From contig JALOQQ010000001.1 of assembly GCA_025453315.1 (NCBI GenBank), positions 1 to 34,988 of the forward strand: DNA of 34,988 nucleotides, written 5' to 3'. A model generated the notes under the pieces. The model was not told where the DNA came from. It saw nothing but the letters and a program-made list of their open reading frames with translations, and did not search any database. Shown piece after piece: positions 6,340 through 28,939 of this stretch. Made by a program: the position numbers and the translations under genes. This DNA comes from Planctomycetota bacterium. GTDB taxonomy: Bacteria; Patescibacteriota; Patescibacteriia; Patescibacteriales; UBA12465. Position 1 is the first letter of the stretch; each line of letters opens with the position of its first letter.

Positions 6340-7713
6340 ATGAAAACAAAACTTATTACTTTGTTTCTAATTTTTTCCATCCTTCTTACCTCTGGTTTTG
6401 GTTGTAAAGGAGCTAGTAAGCAAGCTTTAGAGGCCATGAAACCAGTTACTATTACTTATTGGCGTGTTTTAGATGGTCCTGATGATTTCGCAGAAATTAT
6501 TCAAAAATATAACGCTATTCATCCCTTTATTAAAGTGGAATATCGCAAACTTCGTTTAAGTGAATACGAAGACGAGCTTTTAAATGCTTTTGCTGAGGAC
6601 AAGGGCCCAGATATTTTTTCTATTCATAATACTTGGATGGTTAAGTATAAAAATAAACTAGAGCCAATGCCAGCTAGCGTTACTTTAGTTTACCCAATAA
6701 CCAAAGGCACTCTTAAAAAGGAAGTTGTGCCAGAGCTCCGTACTACAGCCATGATGACTGTAAAAAAATTAAAAGATACTTTTGTGGATGTGGTTTATCG
6801 TGACGTGGTAATGGATAATAATATTTACGGCTTACCTTTATCAGTAGATACTTTAGCTTTGTATTATAATCGTGATTTATTTAACAATGCTGGTTTAACC
6901 GACATTCCATCTTATTGGAATAAAGGTTTCCAGCAAGCAGTTAAAAGATTAACTAAGCAAGACTTAAAACGTGGTATTATTCAATCGGGAATTTCTTTGG
7001 GTGGTAATAATAATATCGAACGTTTTAGTGATATTTTAGCAGTTTTAATGATGCAAAATGGTGCTACTATGATCAATGATGCTAATCAAGTAACTTTTAA
7101 TGCTCCTCCAGCCAATGCTACTAACGACGATTATATTCCGGGACTCGAGGCCTTACGTTTTTATACTGATTTTTCTAATTCTGCTAAAGAAGTTTATTGT
7201 TGGAATAATGAATTAGGAAATTCTTTAGAGATGTTTATGGGTGGAAGTTTGGCAATGATGCTTGGTTATTCTTATCATTTGCCTATTATTAAAGCTCGCG
7301 CCCCTAAACTTAATTTTTCCATTGTTAAATTGCCGCAAATTGAAGGTAGTCCGACACAAGTAAATTTTGCTAATTATTGGGTAGAGGTAGTGTCTAAAAA
7401 AAGCCAACACAAAAGCGAGGCTTGGGACTTTGTTCAATTTATTGCTAAAGAAGAAAATGTTAAAAGTTATTTAGATAAAACCAAAAAACCAACCGCCCTT
7501 ATTTCTTTAGTTGATAAACAAAAAGAAGACCCAGAAATTGGTGTTTTTGCTGATCAGGTTTTGACTGCTAAAAGTTGGTATCGTGGTAATAATGTTAAAG
7601 TAGCAGAAATGATTATGGGTGAATTAATTGACAATGTTGCTAAAACACCAGAAGCGATAGCAGATATTATTAATATTGCCGCTAATAAAGTGCAGCAAAC
7701 AGTTAGAGATTAG
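6340..7713 (+). CDS. Extracellular solute-binding lipoprotein (ABC-type, sugar-binding family 1 like)
   Basis: It has a signal peptide with lipobox LTSGFGC, a 457-aa size and sequence style typical of family-1 solute-binding proteins (ITYWR..., LPLSVDTLALYYNRDLF, ANYWVEVVSKKS). No permease or ATPase gene lies adjacent. Confidence 0.75.
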   Translation: MKTKLITLFLIFSILLTSGFGCKGASKQALEAMKPVTITYWRVLDGPDDFAEIIQKYNAIHPFIKVEYRKLRLSEYEDELLNAFAEDKGPDIFSIHNTWMVKYKNKLEPMPASVTLVYPITKGTLKKEVVPELRTTAMMTVKKLKDTFVDVVYRDVVMDNNIYGLPLSVDTLALYYNRDLFNNAGLTDIPSYWNKGFQQAVKRLTKQDLKRGIIQSGISLGGNNNIERFSDILAVLMMQNGATMINDANQVTFNAPPANATNDDYIPGLEALRFYTDFSNSAKEVYCWNNELGNSLEMFMGGSLAMMLGYSYHLPIIKARAPKLNFSIVKLPQIEGSPTQVNFANYWVEVVSKKSQHKSEAWDFVQFIAKEENVKSYLDKTKKPTALISLVDKQKEDPEIGVFADQVLTAKSWYRGNNVKVAEMIMGELIDNVAKTPEAIADIINIAANKVQQTVRD

Positions 7714-7728: not shown

Positions 7729-8196
7729 ATGATTAAAAAAAATAAAAAAATTCTTATTTCACTTTTTAGTTTATTTTTGTTTTTATTCTTGTGCTATCAG
7801 CCACTTCCGGCTTTAGCTCAGAATGCCCCGGGAACATTAATGGACTATATTGGTGGTAGTTGTCAGAAAAGCGGTGATTGCGATCTAAATGATTTTGTTA
7901 GAGTGGGTATTTGGGTTACCCGTTGGATTTTGGGAATTGTTGGCTCTCTTACTTTATTAATGTTTGTTTACGGCGGTTTTCAAATGATGACCTCAGCTGG
8001 TCAAAGCGAAAAAATTGCTAGCGGTAAAAAAATCATTCTCAACGCTATTATTGGTTTAATTATTGTTTTTTCAGCTTATATGTTAGTAGATTGGATATTA
8101 AAGAATGTTCAAGCTACGGACGAAAAGGGACAAATTAATGCCATAAAAGGTAAGCCAAGCTGGAATCAATTGCCTGAAGGTACTGGTCAGAAATAA
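7729..8196 (+). CDS. VirB2/TrbC-like two-helix pilin family protein, diverged paralog (P0)
   Basis: The signal peptide ends PALAQ. The core LLMFVYGGFQMMTSAGQSEKIASGKKIILNAIIGLIIVFSAY aligns with the hYGGhxWMTAxGNE...AhIGLhIhhSAY core of the six genes at 15827-18596. Confidence 0.7.
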   Translation: MIKKNKKILISLFSLFLFLFLCYQPLPALAQNAPGTLMDYIGGSCQKSGDCDLNDFVRVGIWVTRWILGIVGSLTLLMFVYGGFQMMTSAGQSEKIASGKKIILNAIIGLIIVFSAYMLVDWILKNVQATDEKGQINAIKGKPSWNQLPEGTGQK

Positions 8197-10468: not shown

Positions 10469-11695
10469 ATGCAGATAATAAAACAAAATTTTTCTTGGTT
10501 AAGAATTCTATTTTTTTCGGTAAATATTATTTTTTATCTTTTTTTTGCTTGGCTCTCGTTGTCTAGAGGAAATTTTATTACAGAACATTTAGAGACCTTT
10601 TCCGTCTTTGGACACTTATTAGTTAAATTAATTTTTTTATTTCTTTCTCTTTGGTATGCTTTTTTTATTTTTTTAAGAAAAAAATGGCAGGAGATAGAGC
10701 TAAGAGTATCGTTCATAATTATTTTAGTAATTTGTTTATTTACTTTTCCCATTCTTTCTCAGGATACCTCATATTATTTTTTCATGGCTAGAAATTTTTT
10801 TTCTGGTTTAAATCCTTATTTTGTTCCACTTAATTATAATAATGAGTTTAGTCATTTGTTTCATTCCTATTGGGTGTCACTTCCCACCCCCTATGGCCCC
10901 AGTTTTTTGCCTTTCTTTTTTTTACCCGCGTTAGTTTTTAAGAATTCGCTTATCGGGGCAATATATTTTTATAAACTTATTGTTTTGGGTGTTTTTTTGT
11001 TTTCTTTATTCATTTTTAAAAAGATTTTAATTATTAAAAAATTACCAGCTCATTTATTTTGGTTTTATGCTTTTAACCCAGCGCTTTTATTACAGTTAGT
11101 TATAGACGGCCACAATGAACTTATTATCATTACCTTTTTGCTTTTATCATTATTTTATTTAACACTCGAAAAAAAAGTTTGGGCTCAGGCTAGCTTGATT
11201 ATTTCCATTTTTATAAAATACACCTCATTCATTCTTTGGCCGATAATGTGGTTTAAAGATGGAAAGTTTTCGGGAAAGAATTTTTTTTATTCCAACTTTA
11301 TCTTAATAGCGTCTACTATTATTATTCTTTTTGCCTCTGGCCTTTTACCTAAACAGATATTTTCCAATTTAGCCTATCTTAATCAATCTTGTTTTTATGT
11401 TTGTTCGCCCCTCATGCAATTAATAGATAATTATTTTATTAACTATGAGTTTATTATCAGGTTTTCCATTTTTTTTGTCTTATATTTATTAATATTATAT
11501 GTTTTTCTTTTCCGAAAATTTAGTAGAGAAAAATTTATTTTTTGGACTTTAGTTGTTTTTCTTTTTATATTTATCAGATCATTAACGCCCTGGTATATTC
11601 TTTTAATAATTCCCTTTGGTATTTTGGCTAATGACCGTAAATATCTTTCAGCTAGTTTGTTTTTCAGTATCTATTCTTTATTTTTTTACCCCTAA
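10469..11695 (+). CDS. Polytopic membrane protein, GT-C-fold glycosyltransferase-like (DUF2029-like)
   Basis: The 408-aa protein has about 10 or more hydrophobic helices. Its first external loop carries SQDTSYYFFMARNFFSGLNPY...LPTPYGPSF, a pattern typical of GT-C mannosyltransferase-like proteins. Confidence 0.5.
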   Translation: MQIIKQNFSWLRILFFSVNIIFYLFFAWLSLSRGNFITEHLETFSVFGHLLVKLIFLFLSLWYAFFIFLRKKWQEIELRVSFIIILVICLFTFPILSQDTSYYFFMARNFFSGLNPYFVPLNYNNEFSHLFHSYWVSLPTPYGPSFLPFFFLPALVFKNSLIGAIYFYKLIVLGVFLFSLFIFKKILIIKKLPAHLFWFYAFNPALLLQLVIDGHNELIIITFLLLSLFYLTLEKKVWAQASLIISIFIKYTSFILWPIMWFKDGKFSGKNFFYSNFILIASTIIILFASGLLPKQIFSNLAYLNQSCFYVCSPLMQLIDNYFINYEFIIRFSIFFVLYLLILYVFLFRKFSREKFIFWTLVVFLFIFIRSLTPWYILLIIPFGILANDRKYLSASLFFSIYSLFFYP

Positions 11696-11701
11696 TATTA
11701 T

Positions 11702-13291
11702 ATGTTGCAAAATCAATCCAAAAAGATTGCTATAATTATCGGCGCCGGACCAGCGGGGTTAACGGCGGCTCTTGAACTTTTAAAACAAAAAGATGTTTTG
11801 CCCTTAGTTATTGAAGAAAAAAACATTGTTGGCGGAATAAGCGCCACTATTGATTTTAATGGTAATAAAATGGATATCGGCGGTCATCGTTTTTTTTCTA
11901 AATCAGAAACTGTTAATAAACTTTGGTTTTCTTTTTTGCCGTTACAAGGCCATCCCAGCATTGATGATAAGTTTTTAAATAAAGAAAAAAAATATTCTAA
12001 ATTGCCATCAGCCCCAGACCCAGAAAAAGAAGATAAAACTATTTTAATTAGAGATCGTTATTCGAGAATTTATTATTTAAAAAAGTTTTTTTCTTATCCA
12101 ATTTCTTTAAAATTAGAAACTTTTTTAAATTTAGGAATAGTGCGAAGTTTAAAAATAATTTTTAGTTATTTTTATGCTCGTATTTATAGAATTTTGCCCG
12201 AAAAATCTTTAGAAGATTTTATGATAAATCGTTTTGGCAAAGAGTTATATTTAACTTTTTTTAAAGATTATACTAAGAAAGTTTGGGGAATTGATTCAGA
12301 ATATTTACCAGCTGATTGGGGCGTTCAGCGCATTAAAGGTATTTCTTTATCTAAAGTTGTTTTTAAAGCCATTTTATCTTTATGGCCTTTTACTAAAGGC
12401 ACTAGTAAAAATAAAAAAATTGAAGCTAGTTTAATTGAAGAGTTTTTTTATCCTAAATATGGCCCAGGGCAACTTTGGCAGGAGATGAAAAATAAAATAG
12501 AAAATTCTGGCGGTATTGTAAAATTAAATTCACGTTTGCGTAAGATAGATGTATTAAACAATGTTGTACTTGGGGTAGAGATTGAAAATAATGGAAAAAT
12601 TGATTATATCAAGTGTGATTACTTATTATCTTCTATGCCGATTAAAGATTTAGTTAATTCCTTTTCTCAGGTTGTTCCAGAAAAGATAAAAAATATTGCC
12701 AATGGTTTATTATATCGTGATTTTATTAGTTTGGGGGTCTTGGTAAAAAAATTAAAAATCAAAAATTCTACTCAGATAAAAACCATTAATAATATAATTC
12801 CAGATACTTGGATTTATATTCAAGAACGAGAAGTAAAAATTGGACGTTTACAAGTTTTTAATAATTGGAGCCCTTATTTAGTTAAAGATTTTTTAAACAC
12901 AGTTTGGTTGGGTTTAGAATATTTTGTCCAAGAGGGCGACGAACTTTGGTCTTTAAGTGAAGAGGACTTTAAAAATTTTGCTATTAATGAATTAGAGAAA
13001 ATTGGTATTTTAGAAAAAGAAGATGTTTTAAATGCTCATCAGGCAAAAATAAAAAAAGCCTACCCCTCTTATTTTGGGTCCTATGCCGAATTTCCATTAT
13101 TGAAAGAGTATATTAATAAAATTAGTAACCTTTATCTTATTGGTAGGAATGGTCAACATCGTTATAATAATATGGATCATTCTATGCTTTCAGCACTGGA
13201 GGCGGTTTCTAATATTAAAAATAATATTATCAGTAAAGATAATATTTGGGCGGTTAATAGTGAAGAAGATTATCATGAAACAAAAAAATAA
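11702..13291 (+). CDS. FAD-dependent oxidoreductase, UDP-galactopyranose mutase-like
   Basis: The N-terminal dinucleotide fold is IAIIIGAGPAGLTAALEL...EEKNIVGG. The C-terminal motif LIGRNGQHRYNNMDHSMLSALEA resembles the GRLxxYxYxNMD motif of the Glf/UGM family. Confidence 0.65.
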   Translation: MLQNQSKKIAIIIGAGPAGLTAALELLKQKDVLPLVIEEKNIVGGISATIDFNGNKMDIGGHRFFSKSETVNKLWFSFLPLQGHPSIDDKFLNKEKKYSKLPSAPDPEKEDKTILIRDRYSRIYYLKKFFSYPISLKLETFLNLGIVRSLKIIFSYFYARIYRILPEKSLEDFMINRFGKELYLTFFKDYTKKVWGIDSEYLPADWGVQRIKGISLSKVVFKAILSLWPFTKGTSKNKKIEASLIEEFFYPKYGPGQLWQEMKNKIENSGGIVKLNSRLRKIDVLNNVVLGVEIENNGKIDYIKCDYLLSSMPIKDLVNSFSQVVPEKIKNIANGLLYRDFISLGVLVKKLKIKNSTQIKTINNIIPDTWIYIQEREVKIGRLQVFNNWSPYLVKDFLNTVWLGLEYFVQEGDELWSLSEEDFKNFAINELEKIGILEKEDVLNAHQAKIKKAYPSYFGSYAEFPLLKEYINKISNLYLIGRNGQHRYNNMDHSMLSALEAVSNIKNNIISKDNIWAVNSEEDYHETKK

Positions 13292-13341: not shown

Positions 13342-14037
13342 TTAAAACCAATTTTTAAAACGCCAAACAAACAAACGCCAGAAATGTTGAAAGAATTGTT
13401 TTACTATCTTTCCATCCATTTTACTCGTTCCCAATTCTCTATTTTTAAAACTATAAGGAAGTTCTAAATAATTTTTGAATTTTCCTTTCACTAAAATTTC
13501 TAAAAGTATTTTATAGCCCAATGGTTCTAGTTTTACTTCATTAATAACTGATTTTTTTAACATAAAAAATCCACTCATAGGATCTTTTATTTTAATGCCC
13601 AAAAGAATAGTTAGTTTTGTACAGAAAAGAGAGCCCAATTTTCTGGACCAAGGCCATTCTTCAATGGCCCCGCCTTGAGCATGGCGACTGGCAATAATTA
13701 AATCGTAATTAAAAATATTTTTTACCATTTCCGGTATTAGATCGGCGGGATGAGAGAGATCGGCGTCCATAACTGCCAAAATATCTCCTTTTGCTTCTTG
13801 GAAGCCACGCAAGACAGCGGTGGCTAAGCCGCGTTCTTGACGACAAACATATTTAATAAAAGAATGTTGTTTTTGTTGTTCTTGGATAACAGCAATAGTC
13901 TTATCGGTTGATGTGTCGTCAATAAAAATAACCTCGAATTCAATGTTTGGGCAAAGAGAAAAAGCCTTGGTTAATTTTTCCAATAAAACCGGAATTGATT
14001 TTTCTTCGTTGAGAGTGGGGATGATTAAAGAAATCAT
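13342..14037 (-). CDS. GT2 polyprenyl-phosphate glycosyltransferase (Dpm1/GtrB-like)
   Basis: The pattern is ISLIIPTLNEE...VIFIDDTSTDKT...RGLATAVLRGF..A.GDILAVMDADLSHP. The size (231 aa) is typical of dolichyl/polyprenyl-phosphate mannose or glucose synthases. Confidence 0.85.
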   Translation of the reverse strand: MISLIIPTLNEEKSIPVLLEKLTKAFSLCPNIEFEVIFIDDTSTDKTIAVIQEQQKQHSFIKYVCRQERGLATAVLRGFQEAKGDILAVMDADLSHPADLIPEMVKNIFNYDLIIASRHAQGGAIEEWPWSRKLGSLFCTKLTILLGIKIKDPMSGFFMLKKSVINEVKLEPLGYKILLEILVKGKFKNYLELPYSFKNRELGTSKMDGKIVKQFFQHFWRLFVWRFKNWF

Positions 14038-15668
14038 GGTTTTAAATAAATTATACTAATTTTATCCTCGTAAATTATTCGCCATTTACCAGAATTATTA
14101 AGATGAGTTATTATGCTATTTTCTTTAGGAATAAGATCATTATCTTTAATTTCAAAAAAGAAACGCTCAAACCAATTAAATTTAAAATTAGAATTTTTTT
14201 CTATCATTATTAAACCAATATTATATTGATTTAATTTTGATTCTACTAAATCTTTATCAAAGAAATTATAATATTCTCTTAAAAAAGTCGTACCGTTAAT
14301 TGGATATTGTGGTAAGCGTCCATCAATAAAAAGTTTTCTTTCCGGATAAGTCCAAATCATAAACCCACCCCAACCGTAATTATTAAATATTCTTTTTTCG
14401 TTATATTCGGGATGATCTTTAAGAAATTGTATGGCCGCACAAGGGAAGCTCTGACAAAAGTTGGTAAAGGGATCTTTAAATAGATTAATTTTTGGTATCA
14501 CGCAAGTTATAAGAAAAATAACTGTAATGATAACAGTTGTTTTTAAAAATAAAGAGACGTATTTGTTAAAAACTATTTTTTTTATTTCAAAAAGAGAATA
14601 ATAATAATGAATAGTTAAAGGAAGAGAAGCGACAAAAAAAAGCGGTACATGTCTGCGCGATTTAAAACTCATTATTAATAATATTAGAGTTAGTCCTAAT
14701 CGCCACCAAGAAGTGCCGATTTTTTTATAAGCATAAAAATAGGTAACCAAACCACTTAAAAATAATCCTAAATAAAGTAAGCCCCAATAATGAAATGGGT
14801 AATTAGATTGTGATAACCACTCTGAAATATGAGATTGATAATAATTATCTCGATAATTTAATAAAAATTTATATAACTCTATGTTATAGGGAGTTAAAAG
14901 TGTTACCAGAAACACACCTAGAGCGAAAAATAAAACAACTTTAATCTGTTTTAAAGATAAATAAGTATTGTTTTCGGAATAATTTAATAATTTAAAATTA
15001 TGATAACGAAGAATATTTTCGACTGTTTTTATAATTAACCAAAATCCTAAAACGAAACCACCAAACAGGAAGCCCCCATGGAGCATGGCCCAAAGCCAAA
15101 ACAGCGGTAATAGCCAGAAAAGGATGAAAAAATAATTCTTTTTTTTATTTGAACAAGCTAATTCGTATTTTTTTAAAATTAAAAGTAGTAGAGTTAAAAA
15201 AAGAAAGGTAAATTCTTGCATGCGTACGCCCATAAAACTGCCAATTGCAAAATAACCAATAATAAAAAAAGGTAAAATAAAAAAATCAGCTTTAGAATTT
15301 TCTTTCCTAATTTCCCGATGCAGAAGTGCAAAAACAATTATTACTAGTAAAGAAAAAAAGATATTAACGGTCGGATAGCCAAAATAATTAAAAGTTAAGT
15401 AAGTAAGAAGGTTGGAGAGCCATTCGTGATCCACCCAGCGACCACCCATTATCGTATAATCAAAGTGATCAAAACGAGGAACTTCTTTAGTGAGCCAAAT
15501 TTCTTGGCCATCTTTAAGATGCCAACCTAGATCAGGATTAAGGTAAGAATAAGAATTTTTTAAAAATAATAAGAAAAATAAAATATAGCCCAGAATCCAA
15601 AGGCAATGTTTAAAAGTAAAATAATTATTATTTTCAGTATTTTTTTTAATGATTTTATTCCAAAACAT
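14034..15668 (-). CDS. Polytopic membrane protein, GT-C-fold glycosyltransferase-like
   Basis: The 544-aa protein has many TM helices. Its first loop holds acidic motifs (PRFDHFDYTIMGGRWVDHEWL) and it has a soluble C-terminal domain. Its TGA stop overlaps the start of the GT2 gene (ATGA), implying coupling. Confidence 0.5.
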   Translation of the reverse strand: MFWNKIIKKNTENNNYFTFKHCLWILGYILFFLLFLKNSYSYLNPDLGWHLKDGQEIWLTKEVPRFDHFDYTIMGGRWVDHEWLSNLLTYLTFNYFGYPTVNIFFSLLVIIVFALLHREIRKENSKADFFILPFFIIGYFAIGSFMGVRMQEFTFLFLTLLLLILKKYELACSNKKKNYFFILFWLLPLFWLWAMLHGGFLFGGFVLGFWLIIKTVENILRYHNFKLLNYSENNTYLSLKQIKVVLFFALGVFLVTLLTPYNIELYKFLLNYRDNYYQSHISEWLSQSNYPFHYWGLLYLGLFLSGLVTYFYAYKKIGTSWWRLGLTLILLIMSFKSRRHVPLFFVASLPLTIHYYYSLFEIKKIVFNKYVSLFLKTTVIITVIFLITCVIPKINLFKDPFTNFCQSFPCAAIQFLKDHPEYNEKRIFNNYGWGGFMIWTYPERKLFIDGRLPQYPINGTTFLREYYNFFDKDLVESKLNQYNIGLIMIEKNSNFKFNWFERFFFEIKDNDLIPKENSIITHLNNSGKWRIIYEDKISIIYLKP

Positions 15669-15690: not shown

Positions 15691-15719
15691 TTGTCTTACT
15701 CAAGAATATGTGTTACAAT
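15691..15719 (+). promoter_or_regulatory. Candidate sigma70-type promoter for the pilin array
   Basis: The -35 TTGTCT (15691-15696) is followed by a 17-nt spacer that includes TGn, then the -10 TACAAT (15714-15719). This leaves a leader of about 100 nt before the ATG at 15827. Confidence 0.4.
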
Positions 15720-15826: not shown

Positions 15827-16210
15827 ATGAATAAAACTTTAAAACATTTAGTTTCTTTCGCCGTTATTGCTGTTTTTGCTTTTGGCATACTAGCTATTGC
15901 TCAACCAGCATCAGCTCAGTTAAACGTTGGTTTAAATGATTCTAACGTAACTGGTATCGGTCTTGGTAGTAAAGATCCTAAAGCAATTGCTAACTACGTT
16001 ATCAAATTGGCTTTAGGTTTCTTAGGTTTAATCGCCGTGGTTATTTGTTTGATCGGTGGTTTCAAATGGATGACTGCCGCTGGTAACGAAGAGCAGGTTG
16101 GTGAAGCTAAGAAATTGTTAGGTGCTGGTTTAATCGGTTTAGTAATTATCTTAACCGCTTACGGCTTGTCTACCTACGTTATTACTCAGTTAATGAGTGC
16201 TACCAGCTAG
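15827..16210 (+). CDS. VirB2/TrbC-like two-helix pilin family protein P1 (candidate major subunit)
   Basis: It has a strong SD agaggggtggtg, a signal peptide ending PASAQ and the core LIGGFKWMTAAGNEEQVGEAKKLLGAGLIGLVIILTAY. Its codon choice is more biased (ggt/gct/atc) than its neighbours. Confidence 0.8.
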   Translation: MNKTLKHLVSFAVIAVFAFGILAIAQPASAQLNVGLNDSNVTGIGLGSKDPKAIANYVIKLALGFLGLIAVVICLIGGFKWMTAAGNEEQVGEAKKLLGAGLIGLVIILTAYGLSTYVITQLMSATS

Positions 16211-16243
16211 TTCTGTTTTCTATTGTCGATTTTAGAAAAATTT

Positions 16244-16266
16244 GGTCCCTTCCTAATGAAGGGACC
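16244..16266 (+). terminator. GC-rich hairpin between P1 and P2 (possible partial terminator or mRNA-stabilising stem)
   Basis: A 9-bp stem ggtcccttc / gaagggacc with loop ctaat is followed by only a weak T tract (accgtcttt). Confidence 0.4.
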
Positions 16267-16314
16267 ACCGTCTTTGGCAGAAAAATATTTGTGCCAAGAA
16301 GGGTGGTCAATATT

Positions 16315-16731
16315 ATGAAAAAAATATTTAACTTTGTTAAAAAAACAAGCTTATTATTAGGAGTATTGTTTTTTTTGTTTTTGGGAATTAGTCCTGTGTT
16401 AGCTCAGAGTAAAGATGGTGATTATGGTTTAGCTGAAACGGTTGGTGAGGGACAAATTCAAGGGGCAATGAAAACAAAAAATGTTGATAGTGGAGCCTGG
16501 GGTTTTGTCACCTCAGAATTGGGACGTATTATTGGTTACGCTTTATCTTTTGTTGGTGTCATATTTTTAGTTTTAATGATATACGGCGGTATATTATGGA
16601 TGACTGCTCAGGGTAATGAAGAACAAACAAAAAAAGCCAAGACCTTGATTGTTGATGCAGTAATTGGTTTAGTTATAGTAATGTCTGCTTATGCTATTAC
16701 GGCTTTTGTTGGACAAGCTTTAACTGAGTAA
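16315..16731 (+). CDS. VirB2/TrbC-like two-helix pilin family protein P2
   Basis: The ATG at 16315 follows the SD gaagggtgg, whereas the ORF-track start at 16291 is GTG with no SD. The signal peptide ends PVLAQ and the core is MIYGGILWMTAQGNEEQTKKAKTLIVDAVIGLVIVMSAY. Confidence 0.8.
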   Translation: MKKIFNFVKKTSLLLGVLFFLFLGISPVLAQSKDGDYGLAETVGEGQIQGAMKTKNVDSGAWGFVTSELGRIIGYALSFVGVIFLVLMIYGGILWMTAQGNEEQTKKAKTLIVDAVIGLVIVMSAYAITAFVGQALTE

Positions 16732-16733
16732 TT

Positions 16734-17363
16734 ATGAAAAAAATATTATTAATAATTTTTATTGCGGTATTATTTTCCATTATTACGATAAATAGAGTAT
16801 CAGCTTTGGTTGTTAACTCTGATAAAGATCCTTTTAAAGTAGATTTGCAAAAAGGTTCGCCAATAAATAAAATAGATCCGCTTACCGGGCAAATAGAGCT
16901 TAATGCTGATAATTCTCTTAAAACCCCTTCCTCCAAAGATGTTGCTATACCAAAAGAGGGATATAATTTTTTACAAAACAGTGGATTAGAAAGTACGGCT
17001 GCTAAGTCAGGACATCTTGATAATTCAACCGGAGGTGATGGGGAAACGGACTTAATGTATACAATTGGGCATGTTATAAGGACAGTTATGTCTTGGTTGA
17101 GCGTTGGTTGTTTGCTTTTATTAATATATGGAGGAGTCCTTTGGATGACCGCTTCGGGAAATGATGATCAAATTAAAAAAGCCAAAGCTATTTTAAAAAA
17201 TACTATAATTGGAGTGGTAATTATTGTGTCAGCTTATGCCGTAACCACCTTTATTATGGATCAGTTGGTTAAGCCAGTAGAGAGTCCAACTTTAAAAACA
17301 ATACAAAGTAAAGGAGGAACAATACCTAATACTACTCCCAATATTATTATACCTTCTAAATAA
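16734..17363 (+). CDS. VirB2/TrbC-like two-helix pilin family protein P3 (long form)
   Basis: The core is LIYGGVLWMTASGNDDQIKKAKAILKNTIIGVVIIVSAY. It is preceded by about 110 aa of unique sequence and followed by a roughly 30-aa Thr/Pro/Ile-rich tail. The gene starts 2 nt after the P2 stop. Confidence 0.8.
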   Translation: MKKILLIIFIAVLFSIITINRVSALVVNSDKDPFKVDLQKGSPINKIDPLTGQIELNADNSLKTPSSKDVAIPKEGYNFLQNSGLESTAAKSGHLDNSTGGDGETDLMYTIGHVIRTVMSWLSVGCLLLLIYGGVLWMTASGNDDQIKKAKAILKNTIIGVVIIVSAYAVTTFIMDQLVKPVESPTLKTIQSKGGTIPNTTPNIIIPSK

Positions 17364-17374
17364 TGATTTAGTAT

Positions 17375-17764
17375 ATGAGAAAAGTTTTATTTACTATATT
17401 TATTTTTTTATTTTTCCCTTTATTTCTAGTGAATGCTGAGACACCCAATCTTTCCAACGCCTTTTCTAATAGTAAGACAGCTTCAGGACTTAATAATTTT
17501 AATAGCAAGGCCGGTCTAAGCCAAGTTGCCGAACCGGAATACATTGTTGCTAATTTTATTCAGAAATTATTATCTTTTCTTGGTGTTATATTTTTAATAT
17601 TAACGATATATGGTGGCATAACTTGGATGACGGCTCGTGGCAATAAAGACGCTGTCGAAAAAGCTAAAACAATAATGTCTCGGGCGATTATTGGTCTGGG
17701 TATTATTTTAGGAGCTTACGCCATTACAGCCTTTGTTTTTCAATCTTCGCTTTTCTTTAAATAA
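17375..17764 (+). CDS. VirB2/TrbC-like two-helix pilin family protein P4
   Basis: It has a signal peptide (FLVNAE) and the core TIYGGITWMTARGNKDAVEKAKTIMSRAIIGLGIILGAY. Confidence 0.8.
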   Translation: MRKVLFTIFIFLFFPLFLVNAETPNLSNAFSNSKTASGLNNFNSKAGLSQVAEPEYIVANFIQKLLSFLGVIFLILTIYGGITWMTARGNKDAVEKAKTIMSRAIIGLGIILGAYAITAFVFQSSLFFK

Positions 17765-17782
17765 AATTTCTTCATAACTATT

Positions 17783-18163
17783 ATGAAATTAGTTTTTAAA
17801 AAAATATTATTTTTATTGCTTTTAACCCTAATTCTAATCTCGCCGAGTTTGGTTTTTGCTCAATTTAGTTCGAGAGTAATGACATCTAAACTAGATGCTG
17901 TTGCTCAACAATCCGGTTATTCGGCGTCTACCGACGAGACTACTCTTGTAACTACTTTGGGTAGTATTGTTAATATTCTTTTAAGTTTACTTGGTATTAT
18001 ATTTGTTGCTTTAACTATTTATGCTGGTTTTAATTGGATGACCGCTCAAGGTAATGAGGAAAAAGTGAAAGAATCTAAAGCCACTTTAAGAACAGCGGTT
18101 ATTGGTTTGGTAATAACCCTATCTTCGTTTGCTATTTGGAAATTTATTGAGTCAAGATTATAA
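17783..18163 (+). CDS. VirB2/TrbC-like two-helix pilin family protein P5
   Basis: The signal peptide ends LVFAQ and the core is TIYAGFNWMTAQGNEEKVKESKATLRTAVIGLVITLSSF. Confidence 0.8.
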   Translation: MKLVFKKILFLLLLTLILISPSLVFAQFSSRVMTSKLDAVAQQSGYSASTDETTLVTTLGSIVNILLSLLGIIFVALTIYAGFNWMTAQGNEEKVKESKATLRTAVIGLVITLSSFAIWKFIESRL

Positions 18164-18173
18164 TTTTATTAAT

Positions 18174-18596
18174 ATGTTTAAAAAAATCATTTTTATTTTA
18201 TTGTCAGTTTTAATAATCGGCTATAGTTTTCCAGTTAGTGCTCAACTAGGATTATTAGAAAAAAAGAATACTGGTATGGAGGATAAGTTTGCCAAAGGTG
18301 CTGGTTTTAGCAAATCAACTAATGCCAGTTCAGCACCTTTAATGGTGGCTAATATTATAAAAGTCTTATTAAGTATTTTAGCTATTATTTTTGTTAGTTT
18401 AACTATTTATGCTGGTTTTACTTGGATGACTGCTCAAGGAAATGAAGAAAGAATAAAAGAAGCCAAGGGTACTTTAAAGACTGCAATTATTGGTTTAATA
18501 ATAGTGATGTGTGCTTATTCTATTACGGCTTTTGTCTTTACTAAGTTTGCTAATACTGGAAGTGCGACTAGTAACGGCAAACCACTTGGAAATTAA
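18174..18596 (+). CDS. VirB2/TrbC-like two-helix pilin family protein P6
   Basis: The ATG at 18174 gives MFKKIIFILLS... with the signal peptide ending PVSAQ; the track start at 18129 would overlap P5. The core is TIYAGFTWMTAQGNEERIKEAKGTLKTAIIGLIIVMCAY. Confidence 0.8.
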   Translation: MFKKIIFILLSVLIIGYSFPVSAQLGLLEKKNTGMEDKFAKGAGFSKSTNASSAPLMVANIIKVLLSILAIIFVSLTIYAGFTWMTAQGNEERIKEAKGTLKTAIIGLIIVMCAYSITAFVFTKFANTGSATSNGKPLGN

Positions 18597-18615
18597 CTAT
18601 TTGTTTTAAAATAAG

Positions 18616-18644
18616 AAAAGACTACTTGTGGTAGTCTTTTTTTT
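18616..18644. terminator. Bidirectional terminator between convergent genes
   Basis: The stem gactac (18620-18625) / gtagtc (18631-18636) is flanked by AAAA upstream and an 8-T run downstream. It lies between the + strand pilin array and the - strand gene ending at 18661. Confidence 0.7.
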
Positions 18645-25241: not shown

Positions 25242-28200
25242 ATGACCGGATTCGCTTCTATAAACAGTTTACTCCATCCTAAAAAGAGCCGTGACGATGA
25301 CGAGACGATAGAGGGTAAATTTGCTAAAAAACAACAAGAAATAAAACTTAAGGACATAGAGAATTTAACAGAAGCCAAGGCAAATACCCTTGGCTTGTCG
25401 TATGTTAACCTTTATGGTTTTCCGGTTAGTCCGGATGCAATTATTTTAATTCCTGAAGAAGAAGCTCGTCAAAACAAAATTGTTTGTTTCTTTTATGATG
25501 GCAAAAATATTCGTATCGGTGCTGTAAATAATAATCAATACGTAATTGATAAAGCAGCTGAACTTGATGCCCAATATTTTACTAACAGTAAGATATACTT
25601 AATTTCTGAAGTTAGTCTTAATTGTGCTTTAGAAGTTTATAAAACTATCCCTAAGACTAAAAAATACGAAGGCGTAGAAATTAAGGCTGAAGATTTTGAA
25701 CGTCTTAAAAATGAAATAAAAGATTTTCGTACCCTCGCTAAAAAAATTAATGAAGTTAATATTAGTGAGATTGTTACTCTTATTTTAGCTACGGCTGCCA
25801 AAATTAGTTGTAGTGATATTCATATTGAGGCTGAAGAAAGGGGTATTGTTATCCGTTTACGTATTGATGGTATGTTGCAAGAAGCGGCTGTTATTGATCG
25901 CGACAAATGGAAAAAGGTTATTTCACGTATGAAAATCTTAGCTAAGGTAAAAATTAACGTCGAAAATAAACCACAAGATGGTCGCTATACTATTAATTTA
26001 GGTACTGATAAAATTGATGTCCGTTCCTCTTTCTTGCCCACGGCTTTTGGCGAAAGTGTGGTAATGCGTTTGTTACGTTCTAATGCTATTAGTTTATCTT
26101 TTGCTGATTTAGGATTATTGCCAGAATGTTTTAAAGTATTAGAAGCAGAAATTGCCAAGCCCAATGGTCTTATTCTAACAACTGGTCCAACTGGTTCTGG
26201 TAAAACTACTACTCTTTATAGTGTTTTAAATAAATTAAATACTCCGGATGTAAAAATAATTACTCTTGAAGATCCTATTGAATATCAATTAAAAGGTATT
26301 AGTCAGAGTCAAATTGATAGTAAAAAGGGTTATACTTTTGCTGATGGTTTACGTTCTATTTTGCGTCAAGATCCAGATATAGTTATGGTCGGCGAAATCC
26401 GTGATTTGGAAACAGCTGAAATTGCTGTTGAGGCGGCTTTAACTGGTCACTTGGTTCTCTCGACTCTTCATACTAACGATGCCGCTGGTGTTATTCCGCG
26501 TATGATCGATATGGGAATAAAGCCATTCTTTTTAGTGCCGGCTTTAAACGTGGTAGTTGGTCAGCGTTTAATTAGAAAACTTTGTCCTTTATGTAAGGTC
26601 GAACATCATTTAACTATCGAAGAAGAAGAATTAGTTAAAAAAATATTAGCTGTTATTTCACCAAAATCAGGAATTGAAATTCCTTCTGATCTTCCTGTTT
26701 TATATAAGGCTGGAGCTGGTTGTGAAAAATGTAATAATTTAGGTTATAAAGGCCGTATCGGTATTTACGAAGTGTTTACTATGGATGATCAAATAAAACA
26801 GTTGGCTATGGATAATGCTCCTTCTTTTAAAATACTCCAACAGGCTATTGAAAATGGCATGATCACCATGCTTCAAGATGGTGTTATTAAAGCCACTAAA
26901 GGAGTTACGAGCTTGGAAGAAATTTATGAAAATATTGGTAACTTTGACTATATTAATGAGCTTTATGATATTGTTGTTTCACAAACAGTTGGTCGTGGTA
27001 TTAAGATTTCAGTCGAAGAAATGAATAAGGCTAAAGAGCTAATTAAAAATAAAGTTGGTATTCAAGAGGCGGTGAAGAAAATGCCAACCAAAGATGTTTT
27101 AGTTATGATTATGGCTATGGCCATTGTTAGTAGAACCGGAGACTTGCATATTGAGCCAACTGAAACTGGTGTTAAATTTCGTTTTAGAATAGACGGTGTT
27201 CTTAATGACTTTTTAGATTTACCTAAATCTAATTATTTACCATTATTATCACAAGTAAAAATATTATCTGGTTTTGCCACTAACGTAAAAAAAGCTACTA
27301 TGGACGGACGTTTTAGTATGTTCTCTGACGGCAAAAAAATGGATTGTCGTGTTTCGATTATTTCTGGTGGTTATGGTGAAACAATTGTAATCCGTTTATT
27401 GACCAGCCAAGCCTCAACTTTGAATATGGAAAAATTAGGTATTACCTCTTTCTCTTTAAAAATGTTACGAGGTTCAATGAAAAAAACCAAAGGTGTCATT
27501 ATTACTACCGGTCCAACTGGTTCTGGTAAAACCACCACTTTATATAGTGTTTTAAATGAATTAAACACGCCTTCAGTGAAAATTATTACCGTTGAAGATC
27601 CGATTGAATATAATATGGCCGGTGTTATGCAGACTCAGATTGATGCTGAACATGGTTATACTTTTGCCGCCGCTATGCGCTCTCTTTTACGTCAAAATCC
27701 TAACGTCATGATGATCGGTGAAATCCGTGATGAAGAAACAGCCAAAATTTCAATTGAGGCTGCTATGACTGGCCACTTAGTTCTTTCTACTATCCATGCT
27801 AATAGTGCCGCTGGTGCTATTTCACGTTTTGTTGGTTTGGGCGTAGAAAGACAATCTTTAGCTAATTCTATGAATTGTAGTATTGGTCAGCGTTTGGTTA
27901 GAAGTCTTTGTCCTAATTGTAAACAACCAACAGAAATCTCTCCAGAAAATTTAGCCGAAGTAAAAAGATTACTCGATTTAATTAAAAATCCTGAAGTAAT
28001 AAAACCAACCGAATTAAAATTTTGGAAAGCTGTGGGCTGTGACCAATGTAATAATATTGGTTATAAAGGAAGACTGGGCTTGTATGAAGTTATTGAAATG
28101 TCACCAGATATTCAGAAATTAATTCAAACCGAGGGAGTTACTGATTATGATATTGAACAACAAGCTATTGCCAACGGCACAATTACCATGGTTCAAGACG

Positions 28201-28262
28201 GAGTTTTAAAAGCTTTAAATGGTGAAACGACGATTGAAGAAGTGTTTAGAGTTATTCAGTAA
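25242..28262 (+). CDS. Tandem-fused double PilB/GspE-family secretion ATPase (two complete ATPase units in one 1006-aa chain)
   Basis: Unit 1 has Walker A GPTGSGKTT (26184-26210), Asp box ITLEDPIEY, Walker B DPDIVMVGEIRD, His box TGHLVLSTLHTND and Zn site CPLCK...CEKCNNLGYKGR. Unit 2 has GPTGSGKTT (27510-27536), ITVEDPIEY, NPNVMMIGEIRD, TGHLVLSTIHANS and CPNCK...CDQCNNIGYKGR. There is a single GspE_N-like N-terminal domain. Confidence 0.9.
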   Translation: MTGFASINSLLHPKKSRDDDETIEGKFAKKQQEIKLKDIENLTEAKANTLGLSYVNLYGFPVSPDAIILIPEEEARQNKIVCFFYDGKNIRIGAVNNNQYVIDKAAELDAQYFTNSKIYLISEVSLNCALEVYKTIPKTKKYEGVEIKAEDFERLKNEIKDFRTLAKKINEVNISEIVTLILATAAKISCSDIHIEAEERGIVIRLRIDGMLQEAAVIDRDKWKKVISRMKILAKVKINVENKPQDGRYTINLGTDKIDVRSSFLPTAFGESVVMRLLRSNAISLSFADLGLLPECFKVLEAEIAKPNGLILTTGPTGSGKTTTLYSVLNKLNTPDVKIITLEDPIEYQLKGISQSQIDSKKGYTFADGLRSILRQDPDIVMVGEIRDLETAEIAVEAALTGHLVLSTLHTNDAAGVIPRMIDMGIKPFFLVPALNVVVGQRLIRKLCPLCKVEHHLTIEEEELVKKILAVISPKSGIEIPSDLPVLYKAGAGCEKCNNLGYKGRIGIYEVFTMDDQIKQLAMDNAPSFKILQQAIENGMITMLQDGVIKATKGVTSLEEIYENIGNFDYINELYDIVVSQTVGRGIKISVEEMNKAKELIKNKVGIQEAVKKMPTKDVLVMIMAMAIVSRTGDLHIEPTETGVKFRFRIDGVLNDFLDLPKSNYLPLLSQVKILSGFATNVKKATMDGRFSMFSDGKKMDCRVSIISGGYGETIVIRLLTSQASTLNMEKLGITSFSLKMLRGSMKKTKGVIITTGPTGSGKTTTLYSVLNELNTPSVKIITVEDPIEYNMAGVMQTQIDAEHGYTFAAAMRSLLRQNPNVMMIGEIRDEETAKISIEAAMTGHLVLSTIHANSAAGAISRFVGLGVERQSLANSMNCSIGQRLVRSLCPNCKQPTEISPENLAEVKRLLDLIKNPEVIKPTELKFWKAVGCDQCNNIGYKGRLGLYEVIEMSPDIQKLIQTEGVTDYDIEQQAIANGTITMVQDGVLKALNGETTIEEVFRVIQ

Positions 28263-28366: not shown

Positions 28367-28939
28367 ATGATTAATCTTAAGTTCATGGATAAGTTAAGGG
28401 GAGAATATAAAAAAAGCGAAATTCAAAGACGCCAGATTATTAGTTTATCTAATATAGTTATAAATACTTCTAAAAAAATTATTTTTGCCCTTCATCGTAA
28501 AGAAATAAAATTAGCGGAAGAGCAATTTGTGGAAGTGGAAAAAATATTAAAGAAATTAGAAAAAGAATTTGGTTTAAAACGTATTAATGAAGAAGGATCT
28601 TACTCGGCTGCGGTTGAAGAATATACTGAAGCCAAGATGTTTTACTTTTTTAATATTGGTAAAAAAATTGATAAAATTAAAGAAGCTAATTTGGAAAGCG
28701 ATGCTTACTTAGGTGGCATTTGTGATTTTACCGGTGAATTAGTTCGTCGTGCTACCAACGAAGCTTCTAATGGTAATTACGATGAAGTTAAAAGAATCAA
28801 GGAAATTATTAGAGAGGTGATGGATCAGTTAATTACTTATGATTTAGGTGGTTACTTACGTACTAAGTACGACCAGGCTTATAATAATTTACGTAAGATT
28901 GAGCAGATGGATTACGAAATAGCCCTACGTAAGCGCTAG
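28367..28939 (+). CDS. Translin/TRAX family protein
   Basis: YLGGICDFTGELVRRA matches the translin YLxGxxDxTGELxR motif. The C-terminal LRTKYDQAYNNLRKIEQMDYEIALRK matches the translin LRKRxDxLKYxVKKxExVVYDLSIR segment. AVEEYTEA provides an ExxE pair. Confidence 0.7.
   Translation: MINLKFMDKLRGEYKKSEIQRRQIISLSNIVINTSKKIIFALHRKEIKLAEEQFVEVEKILKKLEKEFGLKRINEEGSYSAAVEEYTEAKMFYFFNIGKKIDKIKEANLESDAYLGGICDFTGELVRRATNEASNGNYDEVKRIKEIIREVMDQLITYDLGGYLRTKYDQAYNNLRKIEQMDYEIALRKR

What the first reader, a model, noticed from the sequence alone, without database searches (positions are those of the whole stretch)
15827..18596. Array of six tandem paralogs of a signal-peptide plus two-helix (VirB2/TrbC-like) pilin family with an invariant WMTAxGN loop
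Six consecutive same-strand genes encode proteins of 127, 138, 209, 129, 126 and 140 aa, using the internal ATG starts. After the first gene they are separated by only 2-18 nt. All six translations show the same architecture. Each begins with a Sec-type signal peptide, most ending near AxAQ (PASAQ, PVLAQ, LVFAQ, PVSAQ). A short non-conserved Ser/Thr/Asn/Gly-rich segment follows. Hydrophobic helix 1 ends in (I/L)Y(G/A)G(F/I/V), then comes the near-invariant loop WMTA(A/Q/S/R)GN(E/D/K)(E/D) and a Lys-rich stretch. Hydrophobic helix 2 reads AhIGLhIhhxAY. A signal peptide plus a helical hairpin joined by a short charged loop is the architecture of conjugative VirB2/TrbC/TraA pilins, not of type IV (PilA) pilins. 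To my knowledge such proteins are routinely annotated TrbC/VirB2-like in Patescibacteria genomes, but no filament, machine or function has been shown for them. A six-gene array with no VirB4, VirB6 or VirD4 gene beside it does not fit a standard T4SS locus.
Basis: partly seen in the sequence, partly recalled or inferred. Interest (0 to 1): 0.8.

Follow-up and report, generated by a model that had tools for sequence, protein, structure and literature searches.

The report
Conserved six-gene VirB2-like pilin operon
This is a six-gene operon of VirB2-type (type IV secretion) pilin paralogs from an ultrasmall Patescibacteria (CPR) bacterium, a kind of array already described in hundreds of such genomes and genetically essential in one cultured species; this copy shows that the six genes are old, position-specific paralogs rather than recent duplicates.

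Summary
Six same-strand genes (15827-18596) encode 127/138/209/129/126/140-aa proteins, each with a signal peptide and two hydrophobic helices joined by an invariant WMTAxGN loop. All six, plus a seventh paralog at 7729-8196, score above threshold on Pfam PF18895 (T4SS_pilin). NCBI already names P1 'pilin'. No VirB4, VirB6, VirD4 or relaxase gene lies on the 35-kb contig.

The kind of locus is published. Quinonero-Coronel 2025 counted 441 VirB2 arrays of 2-11 genes in 383 Patescibacteria assemblies, many away from virB4. Wang 2023 showed a pilin array to be essential in Southlakia epibionticum.

Comparison with related loci added three points:
- 54 loci from other species carry exactly six tandem pilin genes, and each position has its own orthologs. 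Position 1 is the most conserved.
- A strong hairpin without a T-run follows gene 1 in about 93% of arrays. A T-run terminator follows gene 6. This fits P1 being the major subunit.
- A previously unannotated 544-aa membrane protein, transcribed divergently from the array, has a GT-C protein-glycosyltransferase fold. It is the immediate neighbour in 43 of 61 arrays, which suggests pilin glycosylation.

Verdict: a new member of a known kind, of moderate interest.

The parts
15691..15719 (+). Promoter-like site (TTGTCT, 17 nt, TG-TACAAT with extended -10) upstream of P1
   Evidence: Consensus scan only and the sequence itself. Not tested further.
15827..16210 (+). P1, a 127-aa VirB2-like pilin and candidate major subunit. 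Strong SD (GAGGGGTGGTGA); predicted cleavage ASA|Q.
   Evidence: PF18895 36.4 bits. NF045849 39.9 bits. AF2 model shows helices 51-83 and 88-126, pLDDT 74.7. Position 1 is the most conserved position across 54 arrays: 134.6 mean bits and 56% identity. NCBI names it 'pilin'.
16243..16267 (+). 10-bp G+C-rich hairpin after P1 with no T-run. A second hairpin follows that overlaps the P2 SD.
   Evidence: spacer z = -4.68. A hairpin after gene 1 is conserved in structure, not in sequence, across 54 arrays: median z -4.86, 93% below -2, against 12% in the control.
16315..16731 (+). P2, a 138-aa pilin paralog (SD GAAGGGTGGT)
   Evidence: PF18895 38.0 bits. Positional orthology 0.8.
16734..17363 (+). 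P3, a 209-aa pilin paralog with an insertion of about 80 aa between the signal peptide and helix 1, plus a C-terminal tail
   Evidence: PF18895 38.4 bits. Alignment.
17375..17764 (+). P4, a 129-aa pilin paralog
   Evidence: PF18895 28.0 bits. This is the least conserved position.
17783..18163 (+). P5, a 126-aa pilin paralog
   Evidence: PF18895 36.7 bits. NF045849 45.0 bits, above its cut-off of 40.
18174..18596 (+). P6, a 140-aa pilin paralog
   Evidence: PF18895 38.4 bits. Positional orthology about 1.0.
18613..18643 (.). Bidirectional intrinsic-terminator-like hairpin with a T-run, closing the operon
   Evidence: A hairpin follows gene 6 in 96% of arrays, with a T-run in 58%.
7729..8196 (+). 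P7, a 155-aa seventh paralog (loop MMTSAGQ), starting 15 nt after an orphan solute-binding-protein gene
   Evidence: PF18895 47.2 bits. A singleton in this upstream position is present in 32 of the 54 six-gene loci.
14034..15668 (-). 544-aa polytopic membrane protein with a GT-C glycosyltransferase fold, transcribed divergently from the array. Candidate pilin glycosyltransferase (inferred).
   Evidence: No Pfam, NCBIfam or PDB sequence hit. AF2 pLDDT 89.7, pTM 0.90. Foldseek hits: DPY19 E 5e-7, STT3, AglB, AftA. Immediately upstream of the array in 43 of 61 arrays and in L091, L093 and L095.
13342..14037 (-). GT2 glycosyltransferase overlapping the stop of the GT-C gene. Candidate polyprenyl-phosphate-sugar synthase (inferred).
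   Evidence: PF00535 E 1.3e-32. Found behind the GT-C gene in 22-24 related loci.

Best explanation
The region is a chromosomal operon of six anciently diverged pilin paralogs of the VirB2/TrbC superfamily (Pfam PF18895), from a Patescibacteria bacterium close to Falkowbacteria (class ABY1).

Proposed mechanism, with shown and inferred steps marked:
1. Each product is exported by Sec and cut by signal peptidase I at an AxA-type site. The motif is shown; the cleavage is inferred.
2. The mature protein sits in the membrane as an N-out/C-out helical hairpin. The invariant WMTAxGN plus Lys-rich loop faces the cytoplasm. This is inferred from hydrophobicity, the positive-inside rule and the AF2 model.
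3. A VirB4-driven, monoderm-type T4SS encoded elsewhere in the genome extracts the pilins and polymerises them into a pilus or pilus-like conduit. The conserved loops would line the lumen, and the variable N-terminal segment and C-terminal tail would be exposed. This is inferred by analogy with solved VirB2 and TraA pili and from the literature on Patescibacteria.
4. P1 is the major subunit and P2-P6 are lower-abundance, non-redundant specialised subunits. This is inferred from positional orthology, P1 being the most conserved position, its own strong ribosome-binding site, and a conserved hairpin without a T-run after gene 1 that would raise P1 mRNA over the distal genes.
5. The exposed segments may be glycosylated by the divergently encoded GT-C/GT2 pair. 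This is the weakest step.
For: Family: PF18895 is above gathering for all seven proteins. TrbC/VirB2 PF04956 is matched by 17 of 29 P1 orthologs, best E 2.7e-7. P5 exceeds the NF045849 pilin-like conjugal-transfer cut-off.

Architecture: each protein has a signal-like segment plus two hydrophobic segments and AxA sites. AF2 gives a helix 51-83, turn, helix 88-126 hairpin.

Both termini tolerate large added domains in relatives (L073, L076, L084, L085), as expected if both are outside.

Old, non-redundant set: 54 loci from different species have exactly six genes. Same-position scores are 80-135 bits against 65-78 bits off-diagonal. The best hit falls on the same position in 100/80/60/40/90/100% of comparisons. 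Within-array scores are close to the between-genome off-diagonal scores.

Expression layout: the gene 1-2 spacer has a median of 97.5 nt, against 3-10 nt at the other junctions. The hairpin after gene 1 has median z -4.86, and only 11% of arrays have a T-run there, against 58% after gene 6.

Machine and phenotype in relatives: the T4SS and its pilin array are essential in S. epibionticum (PMC10633639; PMC12857230). The three Falkowbacteria assemblies visible in Table S1 of PMC12102498 are all listed as having VirB4.
Against: - No T4SS machinery gene lies on this contig, and the rest of the genome could not be read.
- No filament of these proteins has been seen in any organism (PMC12857230).
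- The Foldseek search of the P1 model gave no significant hit at all and no VirB2 or TraA among the 50 matches listed. A bare hairpin is uninformative in such a search.
- The sequence match to Agrobacterium VirB2 in PDB is not significant (E 6.3).
- The window proteins themselves are below the TrbC gathering score.
- The major/minor split rests on conservation and RNA structure, not on expression data.
- The related loci were picked by similarity to P1, so they sample one lineage.
Confidence: 0.6

Rival explanations
1. The six genes are a repertoire of interchangeable major pilins kept for surface variation or host-range flexibility, as proposed for the VirB2 paralogs of Bartonella and Anaplasma and suggested for Patescibacteria in PMC12102498.
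For: Identity within the array is low (26-32%). The exposed N-terminal segment and C-terminal tail are the variable parts.
Against: Positional orthology holds across 54 species-level genomes, and within-array scores are only slightly above the between-genome off-diagonal scores. So there is no sign of recent duplication or gene conversion. The genes are packed 2-18 nt apart behind one promoter region, with no obvious means of choosing one. The count of six is kept in most loci.
Confidence: 0.15
2. The proteins do not form a filament. They are resident membrane hairpins that build or gate a channel or envelope structure, either as part of the T4SS translocon or independently of it.
For: No VirB4 lies nearby in any of the eight neighbourhoods for which Pfam gene tables were read: the window, L007, L009, L091, L092, L093, L094 and L095. 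No pilus has been observed. The neighbours are envelope-glycan genes. One paralog is paired with a solute-binding protein.
Against: Homology to the VirB2/TrbC pilin families. The architecture is the one that polymerises in every solved conjugative pilus (established knowledge). Fusions to large domains at either terminus fit surface display.
Confidence: 0.2
3. The pilins are assembled by the type IV pilus/T2SS-type machinery, for which a 1006-aa double T2SSE ATPase is encoded 6.6 kb downstream, and not by a T4SS.
For: The double T2SSE ATPase at 25242-28262 scores E 1.9e-230.
Against: The proteins have Sec-type signal peptides with AxA sites. They lack the class III prepilin leader and its G|F/M...E5 motif. 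The ATPase gene is not conserved near the arrays: 0 of 75 related loci.
Confidence: 0.03

Closest known systems
VirB2-like pilin arrays of Patescibacteria (Quinonero-Coronel et al. 2025, PMC12102498; the essential array of six pilins in the T4SS cluster SEML1_0006-0019 of Southlakia epibionticum ML1, Wang et al. 2023, PMC10633639; the 'Sec secreted array' of TM7x)
   Same: The Pfam families are the same (PF18895/PF04956). The genes are arranged in tandem and identity within the array is low. The array has six genes, as in S. epibionticum. The host is a monoderm CPR bacterium, and arrays are often not next to virB4.
   Different: This array stands alone among housekeeping and envelope-glycan genes rather than inside the T4SS cluster. 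The lineage is ABY1/Falkowbacteria-like, not Saccharimonadia. I did not find three features in those papers: orthology by position, the hairpin after gene 1, and the divergent GT-C neighbour. Orthology between these six and the six of S. epibionticum was not tested.
VirB2 (Agrobacterium T-pilus), TrbC (RP4) and TraA (F) conjugative pilins of diderm T4SSs
   Same: All have a signal peptide followed by two hydrophobic helices joined by a short polar or basic loop. PF04956 is matched weakly here. The alignment to Agrobacterium VirB2 (8cue) places the DP motif, helix 1, the WM of the loop and helix 2 in register.
   Different: That match is not significant (E 6.3). The loop here is about 8 residues longer and carries the family-specific WMTAxGN(E/D)(E/D) motif. 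The host is a monoderm. There are six co-transcribed paralogs rather than one gene. No VirB5-like tip protein was found, and cyclisation or acetylation is unknown.
Mbov_0395 family pilin-like conjugal transfer protein of Mycoplasma ICEs (NCBIfam NF045849)
   Same: P5 scores 45.0 bits against a cut-off of 40, and P1 scores 39.9. All seven proteins match at E <= 2.2e-4 over the two-helix core.
   Different: That family is an ICE-borne single gene in wall-less Mollicutes. Here the genes are chromosomal, number six plus one, and have no ICE context. The match matters because monoderm MPF-FATA systems are usually said to lack VirB2 homologues.
Pilin glycosylation systems: TfpW (GT-C) and PilO/TfpO for Pseudomonas type IV pilins; PglL in Neisseria
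   Same: A membrane glycosyltransferase gene lies next to the pilin gene or genes. Here a GT-C-fold protein and a GT2 lie directly beside the array.
   Different: Those systems modify type IV pilins, not VirB2-type pilins. No glycosylation of any T4SS pilin in CPR has been shown. The link here rests on gene neighbourhood and fold only.

Membership tests
Pfam PF18895 T4SS_pilin | HMM score at or above the gathering score (26.6 bits) | tested here: met
   P1-P6 score 36.4, 38.0, 38.4, 28.0, 36.7 and 38.4 bits. P7 scores 47.2 bits.
Pfam PF04956 TrbC/VirB2 pilin | HMM score at or above the gathering score (27.9 bits) | tested here: not met
   The window proteins score 14.1-19.2 bits or nothing. 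However, 17 of 29 P1 orthologs match at E <= 0.01, best 2.7e-7. This supports a superfamily relationship, not direct membership.
VirB2/TrbC/TraA-type conjugative pilins | Cleavable Sec signal peptide followed by two hydrophobic helices joined by a short polar or basic loop | tested here: met
   Each protein has three hydrophobic segments, -3/-1 cleavage sites and a K-rich loop. AF2 gives a hairpin of helices 51-83 and 88-126. The signal-peptide call is a heuristic, not SignalP.
VirB2/TrbC/TraA-type conjugative pilins | Fold similarity to solved pilin subunits | tested here: inconclusive
   Foldseek against PDB gave no hit with E <= 0.001 to anything, and no VirB2 or TraA among the 50 matches listed. 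A two-helix hairpin is too simple for this test. The profile against PDB sequences gives VirB2 8cue at E 6.3.
VirB2/TrbC/TraA-type conjugative pilins | Encoded with VirB4, VirB6, VirB3 and other T4SS core genes | tested here: not met
   No such gene lies on the whole 34988-bp contig. None appears in the Pfam gene tables read for the seven related loci. The literature reports the pilin gene near virB4 in only 1135 of 1948 assemblies. The rest of this genome was not readable.
VirB2/TrbC/TraA-type conjugative pilins | Polymerises, with phospholipid, into an extracellular filament | not testable with these tools
   No multimer prediction or experiment was available. A filament had not been observed in Patescibacteria as of PMC12857230.
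Patescibacteria VirB2 pilin arrays (PMC12102498) | 2-11 PF18895/PF04956 genes in tandem or separated by one gene, highly divergent (mean about 25%, maximum 54% identity) | tested here: met
   Six tandem genes at 26-32% identity to P1. The closest relatives are Falkowbacteria and other Patescibacteria MAGs.
Type IV (PilA-type) pilins | Class III leader cut by prepilin peptidase (G|F/M, then E at +5) and a single N-terminal hydrophobic helix | tested here: not met
   The N-termini are classical n-h-c signal peptides with AxA sites, followed by two further hydrophobic helices. No type IV pilin (PilA-type) Pfam family appears; the only pilin-named extra is a non-significant Archaeal Pilin_N match for P1 (E 0.28, 12.5 bits vs cut-off 25.2).
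NCBIfam NF045849 Mbov_0395 pilin-like conjugal transfer protein | Score at or above the curated cut-off (40 bits) | tested here: inconclusive
   P5 scores 45.0 (met) and P1 scores 39.9 (just under). The others score 20.8-38.0.
GT-C glycosyltransferases (for the 544-aa neighbour, 14034-15668) | Polytopic GT-C fold with a conserved acidic motif in the first extracytoplasmic loop | tested here: met
   The model has pLDDT 89.7. Foldseek hits are DPY19 at E 5e-7, STT3 at 5e-5, AglB, AftA and Pmt4. D46 is invariant and D44 is at least 90% conserved, just after TM1. Donor, acceptor and activity were not testable.

The most novel reading that the evidence does not exclude
The six pilins are a fixed, ancient set of non-interchangeable subunits, one major (P1) and five specialised. 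Together they would build a heteromeric T4SS pilus in a monoderm CPR bacterium. Their exposed termini would be glycosylated by a dedicated, previously unannotated GT-C/GT2 pair encoded divergently from the operon. That would be the first glycosylated VirB2-type pilus and the first with an obligate multi-pilin composition.
Probability: 0.25. Interest if true: 0.65.

Novelty: new member of a known kind. Interest (0 to 1): 0.35.

Why it matters
Patescibacteria make up a large share of bacterial diversity and live attached to host cells. Their T4SS, with its pilin array, is one of the few systems shown to be essential for that lifestyle, yet what it builds or transports is unknown. This locus does not change that picture, because it is one more such array. 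The comparative results do give specialists concrete things to test:
- The arrays are conserved sets of position-specific paralogs, not recent duplicates. This argues for division of labour among the pilins rather than antigenic variation.
- The operon has a conserved RNA hairpin that singles out gene 1 as the likely main subunit to look for in proteomes and tomograms.
- A conserved neighbouring GT-C enzyme is a candidate modifier of the pilins.

Tried and rejected
- Foldseek of the P1 model against PDB gave only non-significant matches to helical hairpins. It cannot confirm or refute a VirB2 fold.
- The profile of P1 orthologs against PDB sequences gave VirB2 (8cue) only at E 6.3.
- The search for related loci with the seven-paralog alignment failed because no stretch was conserved enough. 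It was repeated with the P1 ortholog alignment.
- tblastn of P5 against 72,556 plasmids found no match, so no link to known conjugative plasmids could be shown by simple search.
- A literature search for Mbov_0395 found nothing relevant.
- I looked in the supplements of PMC12102498 for the accessions of the closest relatives (CP066698, OW818634, GCA_021806615). None was in the stored part, so VirB4 presence in those exact genomes remains unchecked.
- Assembly by the nearby double T2SSE ATPase was considered and rejected: the signal peptide is of the wrong type and the ATPase gene is not conserved near arrays.
- N-glycosylation sequons were inspected by eye in the exposed segments (P1 has NDS and NVT). 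They are not conserved among P1 orthologs, so no acceptor motif can be claimed.
- Rfam and tRNA scans found nothing in or near the array.
Full report
**1. What is in the sequence**

The window is a whole 34,988-bp contig; the longest contig carrying P1 has exactly that length. Its G+C content is about 31%.

Six + strand genes lie at 15827-16210, 16315-16731, 16734-17363, 17375-17764, 17783-18163 and 18174-18596. They encode 127, 138, 209, 129, 126 and 140 aa. The spacers are 104 nt and then 2, 11, 18 and 10 nt.

The alignment shows W-M-T-A-x-G-N invariant in the six proteins. It also shows (I/L)(Y/I)(G/A)G before the loop, a K-rich stretch after it, and A(I/V)IGL at the start of helix 2. Global identity to P1 is 26-32%.

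Each protein has three hydrophobic segments: an N-terminal signal-like one and two more.

**2. Family**

All six score above the gathering threshold of Pfam PF18895 'T4SS_pilin', at 28.0-38.4 bits against 26.6. Matches to TrbC/VirB2 PF04956 are weak and below threshold.

It starts 15 nt after an orphan SBP_bac_1 gene.

NCBIfam places the proteins next to the Mycoplasma ICE 'Mbov_0395 pilin-like conjugal transfer protein'. P5 scores 45.0 bits against a cut-off of 40, and P1 scores 39.9.

Of 29 P1 orthologs, all match PF18895 and 17 also match TrbC/VirB2, best E 2.7e-7.

An AF2 model of P1 gives a signal helix and a hairpin of helices 51-83 and 88-126, with pLDDT 74.7. Foldseek against PDB is uninformative for such a simple fold. 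A profile search of PDB sequences finds Agrobacterium VirB2 only at E 6.3, although the DP motif, helix 1, the WM of the loop and helix 2 align in register.

The proteins have no class III prepilin leader, so they are not type IV pilins.

**3. Surroundings**

Every ORF of at least 100 aa on the contig, apart from one 105-aa ORF antisense within the SMC gene (3885-4202), was scanned against Pfam. The contig carries these genes:
- Housekeeping: SMC, L19, a ComM-like Mg-chelatase, UvrA, TyrRS, a class II aaRS, PPDK_N and PLD.
- Envelope-glycan genes: an MptB-like GT-C, a GT2 and the 544-aa protein described in section 7.
- A 1006-aa double T2SSE ATPase.

There is no VirB4, VirB6, VirB3, VirD4 or relaxase gene.

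NCBI labels the contig 'Planctomycetes bacterium' and already calls P1 'pilin'. The nearest homologs and syntenic contigs are Falkowbacteria and other Patescibacteria. The label is therefore almost certainly a binning error.

**4. What was already known**

PMC12102498 searched 3,035 Patescibacteria genomes with PF18895, PF04956 and the CONJScan profiles. Its main findings were:
- VirB2-like pilins occur in 1,948 assemblies that also contain VirB4, but lie near virB4 in only 1,135 of them.
- There are 441 arrays of 2-11 pilin genes in 383 assemblies, with mean identity 25% and maximum 54%.
- The authors compared the arrays with the VirB2 paralogs of Bartonella and Anaplasma and suggested adaptation to different hosts.

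[quoted passage not shown] A 2025 review counts six structurally conserved, sequence-divergent VirB2-like pilins there, and states that a pilus is a possibility still to be shown.

The three Falkowbacteria assemblies visible in Table S1 of PMC12102498 are all listed as having VirB4.

So the kind of locus, its annotation and its frequent separation from virB4 are all published.

**5. New point 1: the six genes are a conserved, position-specific set**

Scanning one genome per GTDB species with the P1 ortholog profile returned 80 loci. An HMM of the seven window paralogs was run on all ORFs of these loci. It shows exactly six tandem pilin genes in 54 non-redundant loci, 32 of which also carry the upstream singleton.

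All-against-all BLASTP by position gave these mean scores:
- Same position, different genome: 134.6, 104.4, 90.5, 80.3, 100.4 and 106.6 bits for positions 1-6, and 116.2 for the singleton.
- Different positions: 65-78 bits.

The best hit in another genome falls on the same position in 100, 80, 60, 40, 90 and 100% of comparisons. Mean same-position identity is 56, 47, 42, 39, 43 and 46%.

Scores within one array are close to the off-diagonal scores between genomes. There is therefore no sign of recent duplication or gene conversion.

The paralogs predate the divergence of these species, and each has been kept. This argues for distinct roles rather than an interchangeable variation repertoire.

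One caveat applies: the loci were chosen by similarity to P1, so they sample one lineage. Orthology with the six pilins of S. epibionticum was not tested.

**6. New point 2: operon layout**

The gene 1-2 spacer has a median of 97.5 nt in the 54 arrays, against 3-10 nt at the other junctions.

The 80 nt after the gene 1 stop fold far better than shuffles: median z is -4.86, and 93% of arrays are below -2. In the control region upstream of gene 1, only 12% are below -2. The hairpin sequences differ between loci, so the structure is conserved rather than the sequence.

Only 11% of arrays have a T-run after this hairpin, against 58% after the gene 6 hairpin.

In the window the hairpin is at 16243-16267. 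The whole spacer has z = -4.68, and a second stem overlaps the P2 Shine-Dalgarno sequence. A T-run terminator at 18613-18643 closes the operon. P1 and P2 have strong Shine-Dalgarno sequences; P3-P6 do not.

My reading, which is an inference, is that the hairpin acts as an mRNA-stabilising or partially terminating element that enriches P1 message. Together with P1 being the most conserved position, this fits P1 as the major subunit.

**7. New point 3: a GT-C neighbour**

The divergent gene at 14034-15668 (544 aa) has no Pfam, NCBIfam or PDB sequence match. It has at least 858 homologs, and those that carry a name are all called 'hypothetical'.

Its AF2 model is confident, with pLDDT 89.7 and pTM 0.90. 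It matches GT-C enzymes, mainly ones that glycosylate proteins:
- DPY19 C-mannosyltransferase, E 5e-7.
- STT3 and AglB oligosaccharyltransferases, E 5e-5 to 3e-4.
- AftA, E 9e-4.
- Pmt4, weaker.

D46 is invariant and D44 is at least 90% conserved, just after TM1. This fits the acidic first-loop motif of GT-C enzymes.

A homolog sits immediately upstream of the array (median 121 nt, opposite strand) in 43 of the 61 arrays that have enough upstream sequence. In four of these loci the rest of the synteny block is missing. The same arrangement occurs in the differently arranged L091.

Starting instead from homologs of the 544-aa protein, two of three loci (L093, L095) have pilin arrays of 7 and 9 genes divergently adjacent. 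The third (L094) has only GT2 and GtrA genes.

A GT2 gene (13342-14037) overlaps the stop of the 544-aa gene, and further GT-C and GT2 genes often follow.

The hypothesis is that the GT2 makes a polyprenyl-phosphate sugar and the GT-C transfers it to the exposed Ser/Thr/Asn-rich pilin segments. The alternative is plain co-location of envelope genes. I put the glycosylation reading at about 0.3.

**8. Topology and mechanism**

Relatives carry pilin domains fused to large extra domains at either end:
- Extensions between the signal peptide and helix 1: L073 proteins of 439-589 aa with the pilin core at the C-terminus.
- Extensions after helix 2: L076 896 aa, and L073 369 and 616 aa.

P3 of the window has an insertion of about 80 aa in the first of these places.

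Both termini therefore tolerate ectodomains. This fits an N-out/C-out hairpin with the K-rich WMTAxGN loop on the cytoplasmic side. By analogy with solved VirB2 and TraA pili (established knowledge), the loop would line the lumen after assembly.

The conservation pattern fits this model: the loop and helices are invariant and the termini are variable.

**9. Verdict**

The identification as VirB2-type pilins is supported.

The claim of novelty is not supported. The locus is a new member of a published kind, and its separation from virB4 is common.

The comparative findings in sections 5-7 are modest additions that I did not find in the papers read. They give testable predictions. Interest is 0.35.

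Noticed in passing
window 14034-15668 (-), with 13342-14037 (-): This 544-aa protein is annotated 'hypothetical' and has no Pfam, NCBIfam or PDB sequence match, yet it gives a confident GT-C glycosyltransferase model. The best structural matches are DPY19, STT3/AglB and AftA. It lies divergently next to the pilin array in 43 of 61 related arrays, with a GT2 gene behind it. At least 858 homologs were found; those that carry a name are all called 'hypothetical'.
   Followed up: yes
window 6340-7713 (+) and 7729-8196 (+): An orphan ABC-type solute-binding protein gene is followed after 15 nt by a seventh, divergent pilin paralog (loop MMTSAGQ). No permease or ATPase gene is nearby. An SBP homolog is present in 41 of 75 related loci, and an upstream singleton pilin in 32 of the 54 six-gene loci. 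The reason for linking an SBP with a VirB2-like protein is unexplained.
   Followed up: partly
window 25242-28262 (+): A 1006-aa protein has two T2SSE (PilB/PilT-type) ATPase domains in tandem (E 1.9e-230, two stretches). It looks like a fused double secretion ATPase. It is not conserved near the pilin arrays of related loci.
   Followed up: no
L073 1511-15808; L076 7254-15838; L084; L085: In some relatives (Magasanikbacteria and others) the pilin core is fused to large extra domains at either end, giving proteins of 200-1867 aa. One example has a Cys-rich, repeat-containing C-terminal extension. L073 carries 14 such genes in a row. They may be pilin-anchored adhesins.
   Followed up: partly
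whole window; L013-L090 record titles: The contig is deposited as 'Planctomycetes bacterium', but its gene content, synteny and nearest homologs are Patescibacteria (Falkowbacteria-like). Many related MAGs in the genome collection are titled 'uncultured Gammaproteobacteria', and one is titled 'Nanoarchaeia'. These are probably binning or labelling errors.
   Followed up: partly
window 16268-16314 (+): A second predicted stem in the P1-P2 spacer pairs CCGTCTTTGGCA with TGCCAAGAAGGGTGG. This partly covers the P2 Shine-Dalgarno sequence and could control P2 translation.
   Followed up: no
window 28367-28939 (+): A 190-aa protein matches the Translin family (PF01997, E 7.4e-20). From my own knowledge, this family is mostly eukaryotic and archaeal, so it is unusual in a bacterial contig.
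   Followed up: no
window 33409-33540 (+): A 43-aa ORF encodes a Lys/Ala/Pro repeat peptide (AKKAAPKKAAPKK...). It resembles histone H1-like or HU C-terminal tails. It lies in an otherwise ORF-poor stretch at the end of the contig (33200-34988).
   Followed up: no
window 136-444 (+), 478-668 (-): A truncated tyrosine-recombinase (Phage_integrase) C-terminal fragment lies beside tRNA-Val(TAC) and tRNA-Leu(GAG) at the contig start. It may be the edge of an integrated element.
   Followed up: no
window 10469-13291 (+): An MptB/MptA-like GT-C mannosyltransferase homolog (408 aa) is followed by a 529-aa flavin amine-oxidase-like protein. Together with the GT2 and the 544-aa GT-C, they form an envelope-glycan gene cluster directly upstream of the pilin operon.
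   Followed up: no
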